A DNA stretch of 15,416 bases, from IMG/VR virus record IMGVR_UViG_2778261167_000001; one strand, written 5' to 3'. Positions 357 to 6,850 of the stretch are shown here, piece after piece (the stretch's first letter is position 1; every line of letters starts with the position of its first letter). The DNA is from a virus (Duplodnaviria; Heunggongvirae; Uroviricota; Caudoviricetes). The notes below the pieces were generated by a model, which worked only from the letters and a program-made list of their open reading frames with translations, made no database searches and had not been told where the DNA came from. Position numbers and translations under genes: made by a program.

Positions 357-686
357 CTATGCCACGACCTGTTCAAAATCTGCCGTTATGGTTACCCACA
401 GCGCCCCCACGCTTGCCGACCATTTACGACAAACCACCCTGATCGGCTTCCAGTCATAAGGTGGCGTCCACTGAAATGCGCGGACGCCACCGTGCCGTTC
501 CAGAAAGGCTTTTAAAGATGGGTGTTCACATTTACGAACACGTATCGTCACGCTGTAAGTCGACAACTGGTTATTCAGTCCCGCCGCACGACGCTGTTCA
601 TAACCATCGCCCAGCTTCACTGTCACCACTTTCGGCTCTGATACCACATTCATATCCGGGCGCACTTTCCAGTGAAACGTCTCCAT
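357..686 (-). CDS. M: Minor tail protein M
   Basis: 109 aa, same length as lambda gpM. METFHWKVRPDMNVV...GDGY.QR...TYSVT...FLE.HGG...WTPPY.W....V.C.KWS...FEQVV pattern matches lambda M. ATG overlaps the TAA stop of H (TAATG). Confidence 0.85.
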   Translation of the reverse strand: METFHWKVRPDMNVVSEPKVVTVKLGDGYEQRRAAGLNNQLSTYSVTIRVRKCEHPSLKAFLERHGGVRAFQWTPPYDWKPIRVVCRKWSASVGALWVTITADFEQVVA

Positions 687-3600
687 TACCGATATGCTCC
701 ACTTAACCGACCACCATCACGGGCCTGCTGTTGCATAAAGTCCGCTGCCGCTTTTTTCCCGAGATCATAAACCACCTTCAGGGCAGCCGGACCTATCTGC
801 CCGTTCGTGCCATCGTTATTGATCTCGATGTTGTACTGCGGGGCAAACATCGCCATACCTGAACCACCAATATCCGCCACAACCCCCAGCTTACCGTCAG
901 CACCACGACGCAGTGGCAGAATGGCTTCAGGTCCAGCTTCCCCCATCACACCCGCGCCTTTTGCAAAAGCAAAAAACGTCGGACGGTTAACCACCGTGCC
1001 ACTGTAACGACTCAAATCAGCAGACTGATAAACACCACCATCTGCATTGGGCGTCACACTGGCAGTTGCTGCACTCCCCCAGCCAAACGCCGAACCAATC
1101 CCCTTAACTGCCTGCATCATGGCCATCTGGGCCATGATTTTTGCCAGATCAGAAAGGAGCGAGGCGGTAAAAGATTTGAAGTTCAGTTTTCCGGTGGTAC
1201 AGAACGTCGCCAGTGCATTACCTGCGCTGTTAAATGCCGCTGTAAACATCTGCTCAGCCGTACCTGCCGCGTTATCCGCACTCTCTGTGAAATTCTGAAA
1301 CGCCCGCATGGCACCGTTTTTCCAGTCTGCCTGCATCAGTTCCTGTTCCTGCCAGTAGCGTCTGTTTTCGTTCAGTTGCCGGTTAAGGCTGTCTGTCAGC
1401 ATCTGCTCAGCATTCCGGTATTCATCTGTGCCGTATGTTCCTTTCTGTTTACTGTCACGCTCCAGTTGCTCCATCTGCTGCTGATATTTTTGCTGCAGGC
1501 TGAACTGTGTCTGGTACCGCTGACGCTGTTTATCCCCCATTCCTGTTGTGGCGATATCCAGGTCATGTTGCTGACGCAGAGCCCGCTCCTCTTCCGCCAG
1601 CTGGCTGGCAAGCTGAATGGATTTTTTCTTCAGGTCATTCAACGCCGTCTGCTTCTGCAGCTCCTGCTGTTTTACATCCAGCAGCGTCAGTGCCTGAATC
1701 AGTTCATCTTTACGGGCCAGCACACTCTTTTCATCTGCCGTCAGTTTTTTCCCGTCCAGGTCGCTGATGCGCTGCTGCAGAGCCAGAAGCTGTTTATGCG
1801 CTTCTGTCATCCTGTCAGTGGCAATGCCTGCTGACTGTCTGGCAGCTGCAATCTGTCCTTCCACCTGTGCCTGTTGCTGACTGTACTGCAGCAATAACCG
1901 GGTGGCCTCATCATTACGGGTTTCGCGTGTTTTTTTCTTACCGGATGCCAGGGCTTTCTCGTAACGTTCATTTTCACGTTGTATCGCCGCATCCCTGACA
2001 GCCTGATCGGCGTACTGCATGGCATTAATACGCGCAATTTCACGCTGATGTCGTGCTGCTTCCGTTTCATTCATCCGGTTCAGTGCAGCATTTTCAGCAT
2101 TACGGCGTTTCTGTTGCTCCTGATAATTCCGCTCTGCCTGCTCTTTTGCATCCTGCAAATCCTTCTGGCGTTTTTTCTCCTGAAGCTCGTTAAGACGCTG
2201 CTGATCGTATTCAACCTGAGAAGATGATGCCGTCCAGGGGAGTCTTTTCGCCCGCGATACTTTCTCCTGCAAAGTGGCAATCTGCGCATCCAGCGAATCT
2301 TCACGACCAATATTCATGGCCGCATCCCAGAACTGCTTCCACCAGTCAGACAAGGTTTGCAGCGTACTACCCAGCGCATTGAGGTTATTATCAATATCCG
2401 CAGTACGCCGACCGGTTTCCTCTGCCAGTGCAGACATGGCTATCCGTGCCGCATCACTGGAGCGCCCCTGCTCTCCAAGGACGCGTATCTGCTCAAGCTG
2501 AGTGGCAGTAAGAAAATGCAGCTCATTGTCCAGAGCCTTCGCGGCATTTACAGGATCATCCTTCAGCCGCTTAAACTGATTTATGGTATCGCTGATCGAC
2601 TGGCCAACCGATCGCTCCATCTGTGCGGCAGCTCTCGCCACCATACCGATATCGTTTCCACGAAATGCACCACTCCCCACCACCTGAGCCAGCGCACCGG
2701 CTGCAGCATGTTGCGTGATACCATTCCCGGAAATAGCACGACTGAGCGTCCACAGCTGCCCGGCAGTGACTCCGGCATAATGCCCCGTCAGCGACAACTG
2801 GCGGTTAAATTCTTCCCCCTCCTTCTGACCGTCATACCAGGCTTTACCCAGACCATAGACGGCCGCGGTAATACCGCCAATAACCCCGCCCAGCATCATG
2901 CCTTTCGGTGACATCAGTGTGTCTATCCATCCGGCACGGTTAGCCAGCGTTATCCCGGATCCCCTCAGCGCCCCTAAATTGCCGCGGGCCAGTTCACCTA
3001 TCAGAACGCCTATCTCCTGGCGGGCCGCTGCACTTTTCAGACCCAGCGAATGCGTGGCTTTTCCTGCCCGCTCCATTTTGCGGATATACACTTCTGCAGC
3101 ACTGCTTACCCCCAGCTGGGCAGCCCTGGCACGAAGCAACTCAGAAGAAGAAAGATTCTGGCGGGTTGCCTGCTCTTTAAGCTGACGGATAAACGCCACT
3201 TTCTGTCGGGTAGCCTCTGCCTCAGCCTGCGTAAGAACACGGGTTTTCGCCGTAACCTCAGAAATCAGCGCCAGATAATCCTGCTGACCAATCCCGCCAC
3301 TGTTTCTGGCCTGTCGGATCTGCTGCTGAATACGCTGTAATTCCTGCAGACCCGCACTGACCTGTTTCACACTGTCAATCTGACGATAAAACGCAGCAGC
3401 CGCTTTATCCTGAGCCTCCGCCAGAGCCATGGCCTGCGCCTGTTCCTCGCGCATTTTCTGGCTCAGTGCCTCCATGCGCTGGCGGGTTTTCTCCACCTCG
3501 CGGGCCATGCGTTCATGAGCCTGTGCGTTCTTCTCCACCGTCTGCGCATGGACGGATGCGGCTGTTGCAGCCGAAGAAGCCGCCTGCGTTGTCTGCCGGG

Positions 3601-3760
3601 CGGCCTGAGTCTGACGCTCCATAAAACGCTGCATACGGGCAGAAGACCGTTCTGCATCGCTGGCTGCACCATTCAGAAGGTTTTTGATACGGGGAATTTC
3701 ATTTTTAAACTCTGCCGCATCAATCCCCAAATCAATGACCAGGTTGGCTATCTGGTCCAT
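686..3760 (-). CDS. H: Tail tape measure protein (gpH-like), about 1024 aa from the ATG at 3760
   Basis: Longest ORF in the window. C-terminus ...NNDGTNGQIGPAALKVVYD...RDGG matches the lambda gpH C-terminus. Long charged coiled-coil centre and a Gly-rich hydrophobic segment. Start placed at ATG 3760 (GGAGGTG RBS) rather than the TTG at 3790. Confidence 0.9.
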   Translation of the reverse strand: MDQIANLVIDLGIDAAEFKNEIPRIKNLLNGAASDAERSSARMQRFMERQTQAARQTTQAASSAATAASVHAQTVEKNAQAHERMAREVEKTRQRMEALSQKMREEQAQAMALAEAQDKAAAAFYRQIDSVKQVSAGLQELQRIQQQIRQARNSGGIGQQDYLALISEVTAKTRVLTQAEAEATRQKVAFIRQLKEQATRQNLSSSELLRARAAQLGVSSAAEVYIRKMERAGKATHSLGLKSAAARQEIGVLIGELARGNLGALRGSGITLANRAGWIDTLMSPKGMMLGGVIGGITAAVYGLGKAWYDGQKEGEEFNRQLSLTGHYAGVTAGQLWTLSRAISGNGITQHAAAGALAQVVGSGAFRGNDIGMVARAAAQMERSVGQSISDTINQFKRLKDDPVNAAKALDNELHFLTATQLEQIRVLGEQGRSSDAARIAMSALAEETGRRTADIDNNLNALGSTLQTLSDWWKQFWDAAMNIGREDSLDAQIATLQEKVSRAKRLPWTASSSQVEYDQQRLNELQEKKRQKDLQDAKEQAERNYQEQQKRRNAENAALNRMNETEAARHQREIARINAMQYADQAVRDAAIQRENERYEKALASGKKKTRETRNDEATRLLLQYSQQQAQVEGQIAAARQSAGIATDRMTEAHKQLLALQQRISDLDGKKLTADEKSVLARKDELIQALTLLDVKQQELQKQTALNDLKKKSIQLASQLAEEERALRQQHDLDIATTGMGDKQRQRYQTQFSLQQKYQQQMEQLERDSKQKGTYGTDEYRNAEQMLTDSLNRQLNENRRYWQEQELMQADWKNGAMRAFQNFTESADNAAGTAEQMFTAAFNSAGNALATFCTTGKLNFKSFTASLLSDLAKIMAQMAMMQAVKGIGSAFGWGSAATASVTPNADGGVYQSADLSRYSGTVVNRPTFFAFAKGAGVMGEAGPEAILPLRRGADGKLGVVADIGGSGMAMFAPQYNIEINNDGTNGQIGPAALKVVYDLGKKAAADFMQQQARDGGRLSGAYR

Positions 3761-4061
3761 AACGCACACCTCCGGAAATACCTTCCCCAAGATGCATCAG
3801 TTCTTCGTCCGTTCGCTCCGGTATCCCGTTCTCTTCCGGTAAAAGGCTGAAATCAGCCACCGCAGCATCACTGCTGCCGGACACCATTCTCACGATCAAT
3901 GCCTTCAGCGAGGCAAACTGCGCATCCATCCACACATCACTGAAGCTCTGCATCCGGAAATAATCGCCCCACTCACCAAGCTCAGTGGCCGACATTTCCG
4001 ACAGCATCCGCCGCCAGTCTGCCCGCCGGAACTCCCGGGCAAGCCGCATGACAAACTGCAT
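3732..4061 (-). CDS. T: Tail assembly protein T segment, expected to be made as a G-T fusion by -1 frameshift
   Basis: MRLAREFRRADWRRML...GEGISGGVRYGPD resembles lambda gpT. The -1 frame at the end of G runs directly into this ORF. Sits between G and H as in lambda. Confidence 0.7.
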   Translation of the reverse strand: MQFVMRLAREFRRADWRRMLSEMSATELGEWGDYFRMQSFSDVWMDAQFASLKALIVRMVSGSSDAAVADFSLLPEENGIPERTDEELMHLGEGISGGVRYGPDSQPGH

Positions 4062-4069
4062 TTCCCGCG

Positions 4070-4459
4070 TCAGGACTTTTCCGGCGTCAGCACCTCATGC
4101 TCCAAATCCCCGGCATTCTCAATGGCTCCCATACCGCTCAGCGACAGAACCATCTCCGCCCCCGCTCCCAGGGCATCATACGACCATGTTGTAATAACGG
4201 ATGCGCAAAGAGTCTCAACATCCTGAGACTGTTCCGCATTCCACAGTGAGCGGGAAACCAGCCAGGCATTGATATCCATCCCCATCCGCAGAAAAGCAAT
4301 CTGTCGTTCAGCCTCCGGCAGTTCTCCCTCTTCGGCATCAAACTTTGCCGTTCGCTGCTGAACAAACGCCAGATATTCAATTCTCTGCAGCCCGGACAGC
4401 TCACTGAGCACCACGGACTGCTTTTCATAATTAAACATGCCCTGTTTCAGAAACATCAT
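4070..4459 (-). CDS. G: Tail assembly chaperone G
   Basis: MMFLKQG...VLSELSGLQRIEYLAF... resembles lambda gpG (MFLK...TLSELSALQRIEHLA...). Start taken at ATG 4459/4456 with GGTGGAG RBS rather than the longer ORF-track start. Position between V and T. Confidence 0.8.
   Translation of the reverse strand: MMFLKQGMFNYEKQSVVLSELSGLQRIEYLAFVQQRTAKFDAEEGELPEAERQIAFLRMGMDINAWLVSRSLWNAEQSQDVETLCASVITTWSYDALGAGAEMVLSLSGMGAIENAGDLEHEVLTPEKS
4076..4084 (-). other. Candidate -1 programmed ribosomal frameshift site for G-T fusion (minus-strand CCG GAA AAG, 8 nt before the G stop)
   Basis: G 0-frame ends ...CCG GAA AAG TCC TGA. The -1 frame reads GGA AAA GTC CTG ACG CGG GAA ATG CAG... in frame with T. A-AAG is a known Lys-tRNA slip site; lambda uses G GGA AAG at the same place. 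Confidence 0.5.
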
Positions 4460-4472
4460 GTTCTCCACCTGC

Positions 4473-4496
4473 AAAAAAGCCCCGGATAACCGGGGC
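4473..4496 (-). terminator. Intrinsic terminator or attenuator between V and G
   Basis: Minus strand GCCCCGG-TTAT-CCGGGGC stem-loop followed by TTTTTTG, 20-40 nt after the V stop. Classic position for attenuating expression after the abundant major tail protein. Confidence 0.6.
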
Positions 4497-4516
4497 AAAT
4501 GATGAGTATCGTCCTG

Positions 4517-5260
4517 TTAACCTGCGGCGCTGACAGTCACCGCAGCCACAGCCACAAAATTCCCGTCAGCGGTCATGCCCACAATGCTGACACTGCCCTG
4601 CTTCACGCCTTTCACCGTGGCTACAAGCCCGTTCAGGGTCACCGTGGCAGTCTGTGGATCTGACGAATGCACACTGATCGCTTTATCACTGGCTCCGTCA
4701 GGTTTTACTGTAAAGGTCAGCGTGGTGGTTGCTCCCACTTTTACACTGGCAGATGCCGGTGATACTGTCAGCCCGGTAACGCTCACGGTTTCAGTGCCTT
4801 CCTCTGCCAGATATGGACGCCCCACACCGCTGATTTTCACAGTGCGGGTCATCACGTCTTTTGAGGCAATGGTTTTACCCAGTGAGCTCAGCCAGCCACG
4901 GAAAACATCAACAGTGCCGTTGGGATATTTGATACGAAACGCGCAGACTTCACCGGAGTCGAACAACTGAACCAGTTTTTTCTGCCCGCTGTCACCCGGA
5001 CGCCAGGCCAGCGTCGCCGAAGTATCACCAACGGATTTCTGCCCCTGGGTTGTCGTTTTCCAGTCTGCATCTTCATCATCGAGATAAGTGTCATCTTCTG
5101 CATCAGCGGTCATTTCGCCAGGTTGCAGATCCTTCACCATCGCAAGACGCAGCCAGTCAGTGTCCGACAAAGGGTTCGCAAACGCATCGCCGTTGCCGGT
5201 ATACATCCAGAACGTCGTCCCCGCACCTTTCGTCTTTGCCAGTGGATTTGGTGTGGTCAT
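4517..5260 (-). CDS. V: Major tail protein V with C-terminal Ig-like (Big_2-type) domain
   Basis: From ATG 5260 (AAGGAGGTG RBS): MTTPNPLAKTKGAGTTFWMYTGNGDAFANPLSD...YLDDEDADW...NGTVDVFRGW... closely matches lambda gpV. C-terminal ~90 aa is Thr/Val/Ser-rich beta-strand sequence typical of the gpV Ig-like domain. Confidence 0.9.
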   Translation of the reverse strand: MTTPNPLAKTKGAGTTFWMYTGNGDAFANPLSDTDWLRLAMVKDLQPGEMTADAEDDTYLDDEDADWKTTTQGQKSVGDTSATLAWRPGDSGQKKLVQLFDSGEVCAFRIKYPNGTVDVFRGWLSSLGKTIASKDVMTRTVKISGVGRPYLAEEGTETVSVTGLTVSPASASVKVGATTTLTFTVKPDGASDKAISVHSSDPQTATVTLNGLVATVKGVKQGSVSIVGMTADGNFVAVAAVTVSAAG

Positions 5261-5672: not shown

Positions 5673-6247
5673 CGGGTCAGCCATAACCTCAGTTGTTGTT
5701 TCAGTGCATACCCCAGTTGCTTCGGCATTTCCGCAGTAATGATGCGGTCGCGGGCATCTTCAAATGCCTGTGTCAGCGGTCCGGACAGCGGGATTTTCAC
5801 CACATCAATGGGGTAACGATTTTTGCCATCAATACGCCGCATCACATGCCAGCGACCATTCGCCAGCTGCTGAATAAACGCATCCCGGAAAAGATATTTA
5901 CCCACCTTCAGCACACTGCCACGGTACTGCAGTTTTCCACCACGCCGGGTCAGTCTGACCTGGGCCGTCCCCAGCTTAATGGCGGGCAGGTTGCCCCGGT
6001 TAACGCGGATCCTGGCCGTCATTTTTCCTGACGGACTGGCTTTAAACACCCGGACACGCTGACGTACCAGTTTCAGGGGTATCCCTTTCACCTGGTTATC
6101 TCCCGCAACGGTATTCCCGGCAACCTGCCGGGTGGCAACCGAGACCGCTTTCTGCGCCACACGATTTATCGCCCATGCGCTGGCCTGTGGCACCATACGG
6201 GTATCAAGGCTGTTCAGATTGCGGATGGCATTCTCAAGCCCCTTCAT
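5669..6247 (-). CDS. Z: Tail completion protein Z-like
   Basis: 192 aa, same length and position as lambda gpZ. GAGG RBS 6 nt upstream of ATG 6247. Assignment rests on synteny plus remembered similarity. Confidence 0.7.
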   Translation of the reverse strand: MKGLENAIRNLNSLDTRMVPQASAWAINRVAQKAVSVATRQVAGNTVAGDNQVKGIPLKLVRQRVRVFKASPSGKMTARIRVNRGNLPAIKLGTAQVRLTRRGGKLQYRGSVLKVGKYLFRDAFIQQLANGRWHVMRRIDGKNRYPIDVVKIPLSGPLTQAFEDARDRIITAEMPKQLGYALKQQLRLWLTR

Positions 6248-6258
6248 CCCACACCTCT

Positions 6259-6534
6259 TTACTCAATAAAGATCATTGGCTTACCGTTAAAGCGTTCATG
6301 CCGTGTGACCGTCCATTGTTGTCCGTCATAAACAACGCGATCCCCGCGCCGTGGGCGGTATCCCGAAGAAAACACCACCAGAGAGACCGCAGGTCCGGAC
6401 AGAGCATTCAGCTCTGCCAGTGTTTCTCCCGGGATCACTGTCATATCGACATCATTAATCGAGGCTGTCTTTCCCATCTTTCTGACCGTGATCGCATCCA
6501 TACGCGCTGCCAGCCGGGAAAAGGGATCAGACAT
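6259..6534 (-). CDS. Head-tail joining protein (FII-position)
   Basis: 91-aa ORF immediately upstream of Z, the position of lambda FII. Assignment is positional; no strong motif recognised. Confidence 0.5.
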   Translation of the reverse strand: MSDPFSRLAARMDAITVRKMGKTASINDVDMTVIPGETLAELNALSGPAVSLVVFSSGYRPRRGDRVVYDGQQWTVTRHERFNGKPMIFIE

Positions 6535-6850
6535 TGAGTTTTACCGGCACTTCTTCTGCACTGGTTCCGGCATCTGCCCAGACAACCCCGACCAGCGGAT
6601 CAGAGCCGCTGTTAGTCAGCTGAACTTTTCCGGACTTCAGATAAACCTTCTTACCCGTTTTCATGTCATCCGTTTTCAGCTTCGGCAACATAAATACGCC
6701 TTCAGCGATACCATCTCCCGTTTCGCCTTTCGCAATATCGGTCAGTGCCACCGCAAAAACATCTCCCACCTGCACCAGTTCTCCGCTACTGATATTTGCA
6801 CCAGCAACAATCGCCACCGTTTTTCCTTCTTCTACAAAATTCTTTGCCAT
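6527..6850 (-). CDS. Small head protein directly downstream of the capsid gene (possible decoration/cement or head-completion protein, DUF2190-like)
   Basis: 107 aa from ATG 6850 (GGAGA RBS). Gly/Val/Ala-rich beta-type composition. The ORF-track start at 6895 would run into the terminator hairpin, so the ATG is preferred. Confidence 0.45.
   Translation of the reverse strand: MAKNFVEEGKTVAIVAGANISSGELVQVGDVFAVALTDIAKGETGDGIAEGVFMLPKLKTDDMKTGKKVYLKSGKVQLTNSGSDPLVGVVWADAGTSAEEVPVKLNV

What the first reader, a model, noticed from the sequence alone, without database searches (positions are those of the whole stretch)
4061..4100. G-T frameshift geometry conserved but slippery heptamer is non-canonical
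The -1 frame at the 3' end of G runs directly into T, as in lambda. At the position of lambda's G GGA AAG this sequence has CCG GAA AAG, so only the A-site Lys codon is a classical slip partner. Either frameshifting is less efficient or it relies on a different P-site pairing.
Basis: partly seen in the sequence, partly recalled or inferred. Interest (0 to 1): 0.4.

Follow-up and report, generated by a model that had tools for sequence, protein, structure and literature searches.

The report
Phage tail-chaperone G-T frameshift site
This is the ordinary programmed -1 frameshift site that joins the tail-assembly genes G and T of a common E. coli lambdoid prophage; its "odd" slippery sequence G GAA AAG is in fact a conserved, widespread variant already annotated as the slip site in phage N15.

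Summary
On the minus strand, G (4459-4070) ends ...ACG CCG GAA AAG TCC TGA. T lies in the -1 frame, which is open only from 4094. The sole slip-prone site in that 22-nt window is G GAA AAG (4082-4076), at the position of lambda's G GGA AAG.

It is not an error and not unusual:
- All 82 close relatives in viral contigs carry it, and the module matches 1,849 of 5,426 complete E. coli genomes.
- Distant G-T loci carry it too: Gifsy-1/2, Fels-1, phi80, mEp043, and prophages of Klebsiella, Enterobacter, Citrobacter and Kluyvera.
- N15's GenBank record labels GGAAAAG "slippery sequence for -1 translational frameshift".
- Among 47 intact G clusters (sample biased by my queries), 35 have GGAAAAG, 8 GGGAAAG, 3 AAAAAAG and 1 AGAAAAG.
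- The base before GAA is G in 35 of 36 clusters, across five codon families.

That last point argues that P-site tRNA-Glu re-pairs on GGA with a central G·U. Published data say this heptamer is intrinsically weaker than lambda's. I found no convincing stimulator in this clade.

Verdict: a real, functional, already known kind of site, of low interest. One practical point: public annotation of this clade calls T a stand-alone gene.

The parts
4070..4459 (-). Gene G, the tail assembly chaperone and zero-frame product (129 aa from ATG 4459; PGAP starts at the second ATG, 4456). Stop TGA at 4072-4070.
   Evidence: ORF list and translation; Pfam PF06894 Phage_TAC_2 E=5.4e-39; annotated gpG in relatives.
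4076..4082 (-). Slippery heptamer G GAA AAG: P-site GAA (Glu), A-site AAG (Lys). On a -1 shift the tRNAs sit on GGA and AAA.
   Evidence: Only slip-prone in-phase site in the permitted window. Identical in 82 of 82 close loci and in 35 of 47 intact G clusters. The same 7-mer is annotated as the slippery sequence in N15.
4073..4094 (-). The only stretch where a -1 shift can join G to T. It is bounded upstream by the -1-frame stop TGA at 4097-4095 and downstream by the G stop.
   Evidence: Frame analysis.
3732..4076 (-). T-frame (-1) coding segment of the GT fusion. Base 4076 is re-read, giving the junction ...LTPEK|VLTREMQF...; stop at 3734-3732. The predicted GT protein is 242 aa.
   Evidence: Pfam PF06223 Phage_tail_T E=5.1e-15. 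Conservation of the -1 frame starts exactly at the heptamer in 16 diverse loci, and the first ATG of T is not conserved.
4091..4096 (-). SD-like GAGGTG, 8 nt upstream of the heptamer. A candidate stimulator with weak support.
   Evidence: Duplex with the 16S 3' end is -6.9 kcal/mol. But 5-9% of positions in the window do as well, the sequence is GAGGCG in mEp460 and other relatives, and the GGAAAAG class as a whole shows no enrichment.
4517..5260 (-). Gene V, the major tail tube protein (context: upstream neighbour).
   Evidence: Pfam Phage_TTP_12 1.2e-66 plus Big_2; annotations in relatives.
686..3760 (-). Gene H, the tape measure protein (context: downstream neighbour). Its ATG at 3760 overlaps the end of T by 29 nt.
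   Evidence: ORF; annotated as tape measure protein in Ayreon, mEp460 and E. coli RefSeq at the corresponding coordinates.
4473..4496 (-). Intrinsic terminator-like hairpin plus T-run between V and G (context).
   Evidence: The same element is annotated as a terminator in Ayreon, mEp460 and N15.

Best explanation
The window carries the V-G-T-H tail module of an mEp460/cdtI/Ayreon-type lambdoid prophage of E. coli.

Most ribosomes translating G terminate at TGA 4072-4070 and make the chaperone gpG.

A small fraction slip back one base while tRNA-Glu (on GAA) and tRNA-Lys (on AAG) occupy the heptamer G GAA AAG (4082-4076).
- tRNA-Lys re-pairs perfectly on AAA.
- tRNA-Glu re-pairs on GGA, keeping the first (G:C) and third (A:U34) pairs and accepting a G·U at the middle position.

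Translation then continues in the T frame to give a 242-aa G-T fusion with the junction ...LTPEK-VLTRE....

As in lambda, this fusion would link the tape measure protein to the tail tube protein.

Shown here: gene identities, frame geometry, uniqueness of the site, its nucleotide-level conservation, and the lack of a conserved independent start for T.

Inferred: that slippage really occurs, the two-tRNA mechanism, and a low-percent efficiency, probably lower than or similar to lambda's.
For: - **Identity.** Pfam hits for G, T and V. The region is 97.6-99.5% identical to phages phi458, Ayreon, cdtI and mEp460.
- **Geometry.** The -1 frame is open only from 4094, with a single slip-prone site in the window.
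- **Where T-frame conservation starts.** The -1-frame peptide GK(V/A)L..EL.F..LAREF.R.DWR is conserved from the heptamer onward in 16 diverse loci. Upstream of the heptamer the -1 frame contains stops in 13 of those 16 loci and is not conserved. The first ATG of T drifts between codons +7, +11, +17 and +25.
- **Conservation of the heptamer.**
  - Present in 82 of 82 close loci.
  - The module matches 1,849 of 5,426 E. coli genomes.
  - Among 47 intact clusters, positions 4-7 are always A AAG, although AAG is only 37% of Lys codons in these G genes.
  - With a GAA P-site codon, position 1 is G in 35 of 36 clusters across GCG, CCG, CTG, GTG and ACG.
  - The next codon upstream uses nine different Thr/Ser codons.
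- **Prior annotation.** N15's record marks GGAAAAG as the slippery sequence. The Gifsy-1 and Gifsy-2 records describe T as made by frameshifting.
- **Plausible efficiency.** In the dnaX context in vivo, A GAA AAG gives 20% and G GGA AAG gives 57% (Bock 2019 Suppl. Table 3). G GAA AAG additionally restores the P1 G:C pair.
Against: - No protein or ribosome-profiling evidence for the fusion in this clade. The 242-aa fusion is in no public protein source.
- In a reconstituted E. coli system, AUG GAA AAG gave mainly zero-frame product with wild-type EF-G and was called unfavourable for slippage (Peng 2019).
- The A_AAG tetramer alone is barely above background without a stimulator (Sharma 2014).
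- I found no convincing stimulator here. Downstream folding gives z = -0.96 and +0.09, the covariation term is +1.09, and the SD-like match is marginal.
- Two natural exceptions, A GAA AAG in L198 and G GCA AAG in L192, show that the position-1/P-site requirement is not absolute.
- Clusters are phylogenetically related, so the counts overstate the number of independent observations.
Confidence: 0.8

Rival explanations
1. Single-tRNA slippage. Only tRNA-Lys slips on the tetramer A_AAG, and the P-site tRNA-Glu does not re-pair in any specific way. The site would then belong to the hexanucleotide NNA_AAG class (B. subtilis cdd, IS1222) rather than being a degenerate heptamer.
For: [quoted passage not shown]
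- A GAA AAG, which has a first-position mismatch as well, still gives 20% in dnaX in vivo.
- Natural exceptions L198 (A GAA AAG) and L192 (G GCA AAG) exist.
- The review describes NNA_AAG frameshifting as dependent on the wobble behaviour of the 5' codon's tRNA.
Against: - Position 1 (the third base of the preceding codon) is G in 35 of 36 clusters across five codon families. The G-ending fractions of those families elsewhere in G are 0.32-0.50, and their product is 0.013. Single-tRNA slippage does not predict this.
- The P-site codon is always GAA, never GAG, although GAA is only 61% of Glu codons in these genes. However, GAG would also destroy the A_AAG tetramer, so this point does not discriminate between the two models.
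Confidence: 0.2
2. The weak heptamer is compensated by a stimulator. In this clade that would be the upstream SD-like GAGGUG (4096-4091) pairing with 16S rRNA at dnaX-like spacing, and/or the G stop codon one codon downstream.
For: - The duplex is -6.9 kcal/mol with an 8-nt spacer. By my hand alignment of the pairing register the aligned spacing is about 11 nt, against 10 in dnaX.
- All five clusters of the window's clade reach -5.1 kcal/mol or better at 8-12 nt, against a background frequency of 0.28.
- Sharma 2014 shows that weak motifs need stimulators.
Against: - 5-9% of positions in the window have an equally good match.
- The motif changes among relatives (GAGGUG, GAGGCG, AGAGGA, AAAGGAC), and the region encodes an acidic, purine-rich linker.
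- The mean for the whole GGAAAAG class (-3.0) is no stronger than the window background (-3.6).
- No role is known for a stop codon placed one codon after a -1 site.
Confidence: 0.25
3. There is no frameshift. T is translated on its own from ATG 4061, as PGAP annotates it.
For: An ATG exists 8 nt after the G stop. RefSeq annotates a 109-aa 'phage tail assembly protein T', and that protein is deposited from at least 1,000 contigs.
Against: - That ATG is absent in Gifsy-1, Gifsy-2, Fels-1, N15, phi80 and lambda. There the first ATG falls at +11 to +25 codons, inside the conserved domain.
- Conserved T-frame residues (GKVL.RE) lie upstream of it and start exactly at the heptamer.
- No good SD precedes it (TCCTGACGCGGGAA).
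- According to the review, tail assembly in lambda depends on the ratio of gpG to the frameshift-derived fusion gpGT.
Confidence: 0.05
4. It is a sequencing error or a decayed copy of a canonical G GGA AAG site.
For: A single-base difference (G to A) from lambda's heptamer.
Against: The heptamer is identical in 82 of 82 independent contigs and in 35 divergent clusters, including isolated, plaque-forming phages such as Ayreon, mEp460, phi80 and N15.
Confidence: 0.01

Closest known systems
Phage lambda G/GT programmed -1 frameshift (Levin, Hendrix & Casjens 1993; Xu, Hendrix & Duda 2004, 2013, as cited in PMC5009743)
   Same: Same gene order (V-G-T-H) and the same Pfam families for G and T. T is in the -1 frame. 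The slip site sits at the aligned position, around the invariant Lys near the C-terminus of G. The A-site codon is AAG in both.
   Different: - Lambda's heptamer is G GGA AAG (tRNA-Gly in the P site, fully canonical). Here it is G GAA AAG (tRNA-Glu, with a middle-position G·U after the shift).
- The G stop is one codon after the heptamer here, against five in lambda.
- The G proteins are only about 31-33% identical.
Phage N15 genes 14/15 (GenBank NC_001901, misc_feature 'slippery sequence for -1 translational frameshift')
   Same: Exactly the same heptamer, GGAAAAG, in the same phase (GCG GAA AAG) at the G-T junction.
   Different: - It belongs to a different branch of the family. Its G is distant from the window's, and the G stop is 15 nt after the heptamer.
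- N15-type loci have a possible GCCAG/CUGGC hairpin starting 5-6 nt downstream, which the window's clade lacks.
Gifsy-1, Gifsy-2 and Fels-1 prophages of Salmonella LT2
   Same: They are the closest divergent relatives (54-56% G identity, 67-70% DNA identity). They share CCG GAA AAG (T/C)CC TGA, and in Gifsy-1 and Gifsy-2 T is annotated as made by frameshifting.
   Different: Different host genus. The SD-like element upstream differs in sequence and register.
E. coli dnaX A AAA AAG and its mutant series (Tsuchihashi & Brown 1992, as tabulated in Bock 2019, PMC6787027)
   Same: tRNA-Lys slips from AAG to AAA in the A site. The P-site GAA variant (A GAA AAG) was measured at 20% in vivo.
   Different: dnaX relies on a strong upstream SD and a downstream stem-loop. 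No comparable stimulators were detected here. G GAA AAG itself was not in that series.
Hexanucleotide NNA_AAG sites (B. subtilis cdd A_CGA_AAG, IS1222 G_CGA_AAG) and G_GA-type P-site heptamers of insect-specific flaviviruses (reviewed in PMC5009743, section 31)
   Same: These are intermediates between the tetramer and the full heptamer, with an imperfect P-site re-pairing tolerated.
   Different: Those involve different P-site codons and tRNAs and different organisms. The flavivirus sites act on eukaryotic ribosomes with RNA structures.

Membership tests
Lambda-type G/GT tail assembly chaperone with programmed -1 frameshift | Two overlapping ORFs located between the major tail (tube) gene and the tape measure gene | tested here: met
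   V 5260-4517, G 4459-4070, T frame 4094-3732, H 3760-686 (annotations).
Lambda-type G/GT tail assembly chaperone with programmed -1 frameshift | The upstream ORF is a gpG homologue and the downstream frame a gpT homologue | tested here: met
   PF06894 Phage_TAC_2 at 5.4e-39; PF06223 Phage_tail_T at 5.1e-15.
Lambda-type G/GT tail assembly chaperone with programmed -1 frameshift | The downstream ORF is in the -1 frame and open across the end of G | tested here: met
   The -1 frame is open from 4094 through the G stop to 3732.
Lambda-type G/GT tail assembly chaperone with programmed -1 frameshift | A slippery sequence lies in the overlap and is conserved among relatives | tested here: met
   G GAA AAG at 4082-4076 is the only candidate. 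It is conserved in 82 of 82 close loci and in 35 of 47 clusters.
Lambda-type G/GT tail assembly chaperone with programmed -1 frameshift | T has no conserved independent translation start | tested here: met
   The first ATG is at codon +7, +11, +17 or +25 in different relatives. Conserved residues lie upstream of it.
Lambda-type G/GT tail assembly chaperone with programmed -1 frameshift | The G-T fusion protein is actually produced, at a low fixed ratio to G | not testable with these tools
   This needs a reporter assay, mass spectrometry or ribosome profiling. The fusion sequence is absent from public protein sets.
Canonical X_XXY_YYZ simultaneous-slippage heptamer | Positions 1-3 are identical, so the P-site tRNA keeps two Watson-Crick pairs plus wobble after the shift | tested here: not met
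   Positions 1-3 are G-G-A. tRNA-Glu on GGA has a middle-position G·U (sequence; Peng 2019).
Canonical X_XXY_YYZ simultaneous-slippage heptamer | Positions 4-6 are identical, and in bacteria the A-site tRNA re-pairs cognately (A_AAG is the best case) | tested here: met
   A AAG is present and is invariant in 47 of 47 clusters. Sharma 2014 gives the rule.
Tetramer/hexanucleotide Z_ZZN (NNA_AAG) single-slippage sites | Function is independent of the base at heptamer position 1 | tested here: inconclusive
   Position 1 is G in 35 of 36 clusters across five codon families, which argues against independence. Two natural exceptions exist, and phylogenetic non-independence limits the test.
dnaX-type stimulated -1 site | An upstream SD-like element and a downstream stem-loop at functional spacing | tested here: inconclusive
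   The SD-like GAGGUG at an 8-nt spacer is marginal (5-9% background). The downstream structure is not significant and has no covariation support. Rfam finds nothing.

The most novel reading that the evidence does not exclude
G GAA AAG is treated by translation biochemists as an 'unfavourable' control heptamer. It may nevertheless be a selected slip site of enterobacterial lambda-like phages because it works with an unrecognised stimulator or regulatory input. Candidates in this clade are the upstream anti-SD pairing, the nascent acidic G tail, or the stop codon one codon downstream. Another possibility follows from both slipping tRNAs (Glu and Lys) carrying mnm5s2U34. That could make the G:GT ratio doubly sensitive to the host 2-thiouridine pathway, which is already known to modulate lambda G-T frameshifting.
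Probability: 0.15. Interest if true: 0.45.

Novelty: already known. Interest (0 to 1): 0.15.

Why it matters
There is little here that is new in biology. The G-T frameshift is a textbook case of recoding, and this heptamer variant is already recorded for N15.

Two modest points have practical value:

1. **Annotation.** RefSeq/PGAP and most phage records of this very common E. coli prophage type annotate T as a free-standing 109-aa gene and omit the GT fusion. The module is in about a third of complete E. coli genomes. Frameshift predictors restricted to X_XXY_YYZ will miss it.
2. **A natural test case.** The comparative pattern (NNG GAA AAG fixed at all three wobble positions) is a natural case for P-site near-cognate re-pairing. 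It uses a heptamer that in vitro work treats as poorly slippery, so it makes a cheap, well-defined reporter experiment.

Tried and rejected
- **Sequencing error or pseudogene.** Rejected by 82 of 82 identical loci and wide conservation.
- **Downstream stimulatory structure in the window.**
  - Single-sequence folds were not significant (z = -0.96 and +0.09).
  - The six-sequence RNAalifold had an unfavourable covariation term, and its only nearby helix pairs the heptamer itself.
- **Rfam scan of 3600-4600.** Only a chance lncRNA hit at E = 0.99.
- **SD-like stimulator.** Present in the window but within background and not a property of the whole class. Kept only as a weak rival.
- **GCCAG/CUGGC hairpin of N15/phi80-type loci.** The correlation with the weak heptamer is intriguing, but the consensus energy is -5 kcal/mol and covariation is about 0. 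It is also absent from the window's clade.
- **Literature searches.**
  - Searches for GGAAAAG or 'GAA AAG' as a phage slip site found only Peng 2019.
  - Xu 2004 and Xu 2013 are not held, so I could not check their tables of slip sites.
  - The PRFect supplements held no list.
- **Transcriptional slippage.** Considered and rejected from general knowledge: a run of four A is too short.
- **Not run.** Structure prediction and large protein searches were not used, because gene identity was already unambiguous.

Full report
**1. What is at the coordinates**

The genes of this window run on the minus strand.

- Gene G runs from ATG 4459 (a second ATG is at 4456) to TGA 4072-4070. It ends ...GAG CAT GAG GTG CTG ACG CCG GAA AAG TCC TGA.
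- The next reading frame is displaced by -1. In that frame a TGA lies at 4097-4095. The frame is then open from 4094, across the G stop, down to a stop at 3734-3732.
- Pfam identifies the first product as the lambda tail assembly chaperone G (PF06894, 5.4e-39) and the second frame as minor tail protein T (PF06223, 5.1e-15).
- The upstream gene is a lambda-type tail tube protein with a C-terminal Big_2 domain. Downstream lies the tape measure gene (686-3760).

A -1 shift that joins G to T can only occur between 4094 and 4073. The only in-phase site there whose A-site codon can re-pair is G GAA AAG at 4082-4076.

**2. Identity of the element**

- The 821-bp G-T region is 97.6-99.5% identical to the lambdoid coliphages phi458, Ayreon, cdtI, mEp460, Tritos and others.
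- It matches 1,849 of 5,426 complete E. coli genomes, nearly always at 95% identity or more. This is one of the commonest E. coli prophage tail modules.

**3. Is the heptamer an error or an oddity? Neither.**

Close relatives:
- All 82 close loci (80 from viral contigs plus the Ayreon and mEp460 records) read CCGGAAAAGTCCTGA.

More distant G-T loci with G GAA AAG at the aligned position:
- Gifsy-1, Gifsy-2 and Fels-1 (CCG GAA AAG);
- phi80, mEp043 and Klebsiella phage Kp4865-4 (GCG GAA AAG);
- prophages of Citrobacter, Enterobacter, Atlantibacter, Superficieibacter, Pseudocitrobacter, Yokenella, Phytobacter, Pluralibacter and Kluyvera.

Other heptamers at the same position:
- Lambda, 434 and the Stx2a phages, plus prophages of Serratia, Edwardsiella and Symbiopectobacterium, have G GGA AAG.
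- VT1-Sakai has A AAA AAG.

Prior annotation:
- The N15 GenBank record carries a misc_feature 'slippery sequence for -1 translational frameshift' whose sequence is GGAAAAG.
- The Gifsy-1 and Gifsy-2 records describe T as produced by translational frameshifting.

So the variant is already on record.

**4. Nucleotide-level conservation**

From 277 loci I obtained 135 distinct G proteins in 50 clusters at 90% identity, of which 47 are intact.

| Heptamer | Clusters |
|---|---|
| GGAAAAG | 35 |
| GGGAAAG | 8 |
| AAAAAAG | 3 |
| AGAAAAG | 1 |

The proportions are biased, because three of my four queries were of the GGAAAAG type. The qualitative result is not biased.

- Positions 4-7 are A AAG in all 47 clusters, although AAG is only 37% of Lys codons elsewhere in the G genes of the 36 GAA-type clusters.
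- Among the 36 clusters with a GAA P-site codon, the preceding codon is GCG (21), CCG (6), CTG (4), GTG (3), ACG (1) or GCA (1).
  - The amino acid changes among Ala, Pro, Leu, Val and Thr, but the third base is G in 35 of 36.
  - Elsewhere in G those G-ending codons make up 0.32-0.50 of their families.
  - Counting one event per amino acid, the product is 0.013.
- The next codon upstream uses nine different Thr/Ser codons, and upstream third positions carry 1.5-1.9 bits of entropy.

The clusters share ancestry, so these counts are not independent trials. Even so, the pattern is what selection on the RNA sequence NNG GAA AAG predicts.

**5. Is T made by frameshifting rather than on its own?**

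- In 16 diverse loci the -1-frame translation is conserved from the heptamer onward: GK(V/A)L..EL.F..LAREF.R.DWR.
- Upstream of the heptamer it contains stops in 13 of the 16 loci and is not conserved.
- The first ATG in the T frame lies at codon +7 in this clade but at +11, +17 or +25 in others, inside the conserved domain.
- PGAP nevertheless annotates T as a 109-aa CDS from ATG 4061. That protein is deposited from at least 1,000 contigs, whereas the 242-aa fusion is in no source.

I regard independent initiation as very unlikely (about 0.05).

**6. Mechanism**

On the heptamer, tRNA-Lys moves from AAG to AAA, the favourable change that makes A_AAG the best bacterial A-site motif (Sharma 2014; Bock 2019).

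tRNA-Glu moves from GAA to GGA. The first pair (G:C) and the third pair (A:U34) are kept, and the middle pair becomes G·U. The invariance of position 1 fits a requirement for that first G:C pair. It therefore favours two-tRNA slippage with a near-cognate P site over pure single-tRNA slippage on A_AAG.

Two natural exceptions, A GAA AAG in L198 and G GCA AAG in L192, show that the requirement is not absolute.

**7. Efficiency**

Evidence that the heptamer is weak:
- Peng et al. 2019 used AUG GAA AAG as the 'unfavourable', 'less slippery' counterpart of G GGA AAG in a reconstituted E. coli system.
  - With wild-type EF-G it gave mainly zero-frame product.
  - It did respond to EF-G domain-4 mutants.
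- Sharma 2014 found the A_AAG tetramer barely above background without a stimulator, but at 5.6% with a pseudoknot.

Evidence that it can still work, from the in vivo dnaX series (Tsuchihashi & Brown, tabulated in Bock 2019 Suppl. Table 3):

| Heptamer | Frameshifting in vivo |
|---|---|
| A AAA AAG | 81% |
| G GGA AAG | 57% |
| A GAA AAG | 20% |

- The combined penalty for P1 G:C to A:C plus P2 A:U to G:U is 8.5 kJ/mol, against -4.6 kJ/mol for the A-site wobble change.
- G GAA AAG lacks the P1 mismatch. Under that additive model it should lie between 20% and 57% in that context. This is my inference; it was not measured.

Lambda needs only a G:GT ratio of about 30:1 (PMC5009743). A several-fold weaker heptamer could therefore still be adequate.

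**8. Stimulators**

- Downstream RNA in the window folds no better than shuffled sequence (z = -0.96 for 100 nt, +0.09 for 60 nt).
- An alignment of six clade members gives an unfavourable covariation term (+1.09), and its only nearby helix pairs the heptamer itself.
- Rfam finds nothing relevant.
- Upstream, GAGGUG (4096-4091) can pair with the 16S 3' end at -6.9 kcal/mol. Its spacing is 8 nt (about 11 nt by my alignment of the pairing register, against 10 in dnaX).
  - All five clusters of this clade have a match of -5.1 kcal/mol or better at 8-12 nt.
  - But 5-9% of positions in the window do as well, 28% reach -5.1, and the region encodes an acidic, purine-rich linker.
  - The motif is not conserved in sequence, and the GGAAAAG class as a whole shows no enrichment.

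I keep this only as a weak hypothesis.

**9. Comparison with what is known, and novelty**

- The site meets every testable criterion for the lambda-type G/GT recoding system. It fails only the strict X_XXY_YYZ definition of the heptamer.
- It is the same heptamer that N15's record annotates.
- Imperfect P-site triplets such as G_GA are listed as recognised intermediates in the Atkins 2016 review.
- PRFect recognises non-'threethree' motifs in tail chaperone genes, including one it calls 'twofour'. By my reading of that name it would fit GGAAAA; the motif definition itself was not in the text I could read.

I therefore classify it as already known and of low interest. What remains open is quantitative:
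- the actual in vivo efficiency;
- whether position 1 and the SD-like element matter;
- why a heptamer that behaves poorly in vitro is so widely fixed.

A handful of reporter constructs would settle all three.

Noticed in passing
window 4473-4496 (minus strand): An intrinsic terminator-like hairpin, GCCCCGG-TTAT-CCGGGGC followed by T6, lies between the V stop and the G start. The same element is annotated as a terminator in Ayreon, mEp460 and N15. It would lower G/T/H transcription relative to V.
   Followed up: partly
window 3732-4061 (minus strand); L282 6460-6789: RefSeq/PGAP and several phage records annotate T of this clade as a stand-alone 109-aa CDS from an internal, non-conserved ATG. 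That protein is on at least 1,000 contigs, while the 242-aa GT fusion is in no public source. This is a systematic annotation gap for a prophage present in about a third of complete E. coli genomes.
   Followed up: yes
L144, L152, L194, L200, L247, L091 and others; 5-6 nt after the heptamer: N15/phi80/Kluyvera-type GGAAAAG loci have GCCAG 5-6 nt after the heptamer, complementary to a conserved CUGGC about 21 nt further on. Loci with canonical heptamers (GGGAAAG, AAAAAAG) have GACGG or GAAGG there and cannot pair. The consensus fold is weak (-5.0 kcal/mol) with no real covariation. The window's clade lacks it.
   Followed up: partly
L198 1399-1405; L192: Natural exceptions to NNG GAA AAG: L198 has GCA GAA AAG (A GAA AAG, the dnaX mutant measured at 20% in vivo), and L192 has GCG GCA AAG. 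L198 also has the strongest predicted downstream structure in the set (z = -3.7).
   Followed up: partly
L123-L135 (genome contigs): The slip-site region and the G/T lengths are identical to lambda's in contigs, several of them short and at about 1x coverage, from assemblies of Pseudomonas, Kitasatospora, Neobacillus, Oceanobacillus, Shewanella, Chromatium, Leeuwenhoekiella, Paenibacillus, Pseudoxanthomonas and Psychrobacter. This is almost certainly lambda control-DNA contamination. L095 ('Bacillota MAG') and L100 ('Proteobacteria soil MAG') carry the E. coli-type prophage G at 98% and 93% identity.
   Followed up: no
L004, L005: Two viral-contig relatives have frame-breaking indels inside G but an intact slip site and T frame. 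They are either decaying prophages or assembly errors.
   Followed up: partly
window 4070-4082 (minus strand): In this clade (mEp460, Gifsy, Fels) and in a few phi80-like loci, the G stop codon lies one codon after the heptamer (AAG YCC TGA/TAG). In lambda, N15 and phi80 it lies five codons after. Any functional meaning is unknown.
   Followed up: no
window 3058-3064, 6625-6631, 15215-15221 (minus strand); 5887-5893, 6517-6523 (plus strand): There are five further copies of GGAAAAG in the window. By hand, the one in H (3064-3058) is in the phase GGA AAA G, not the slip-prone phase. The others were not checked.
   Followed up: no
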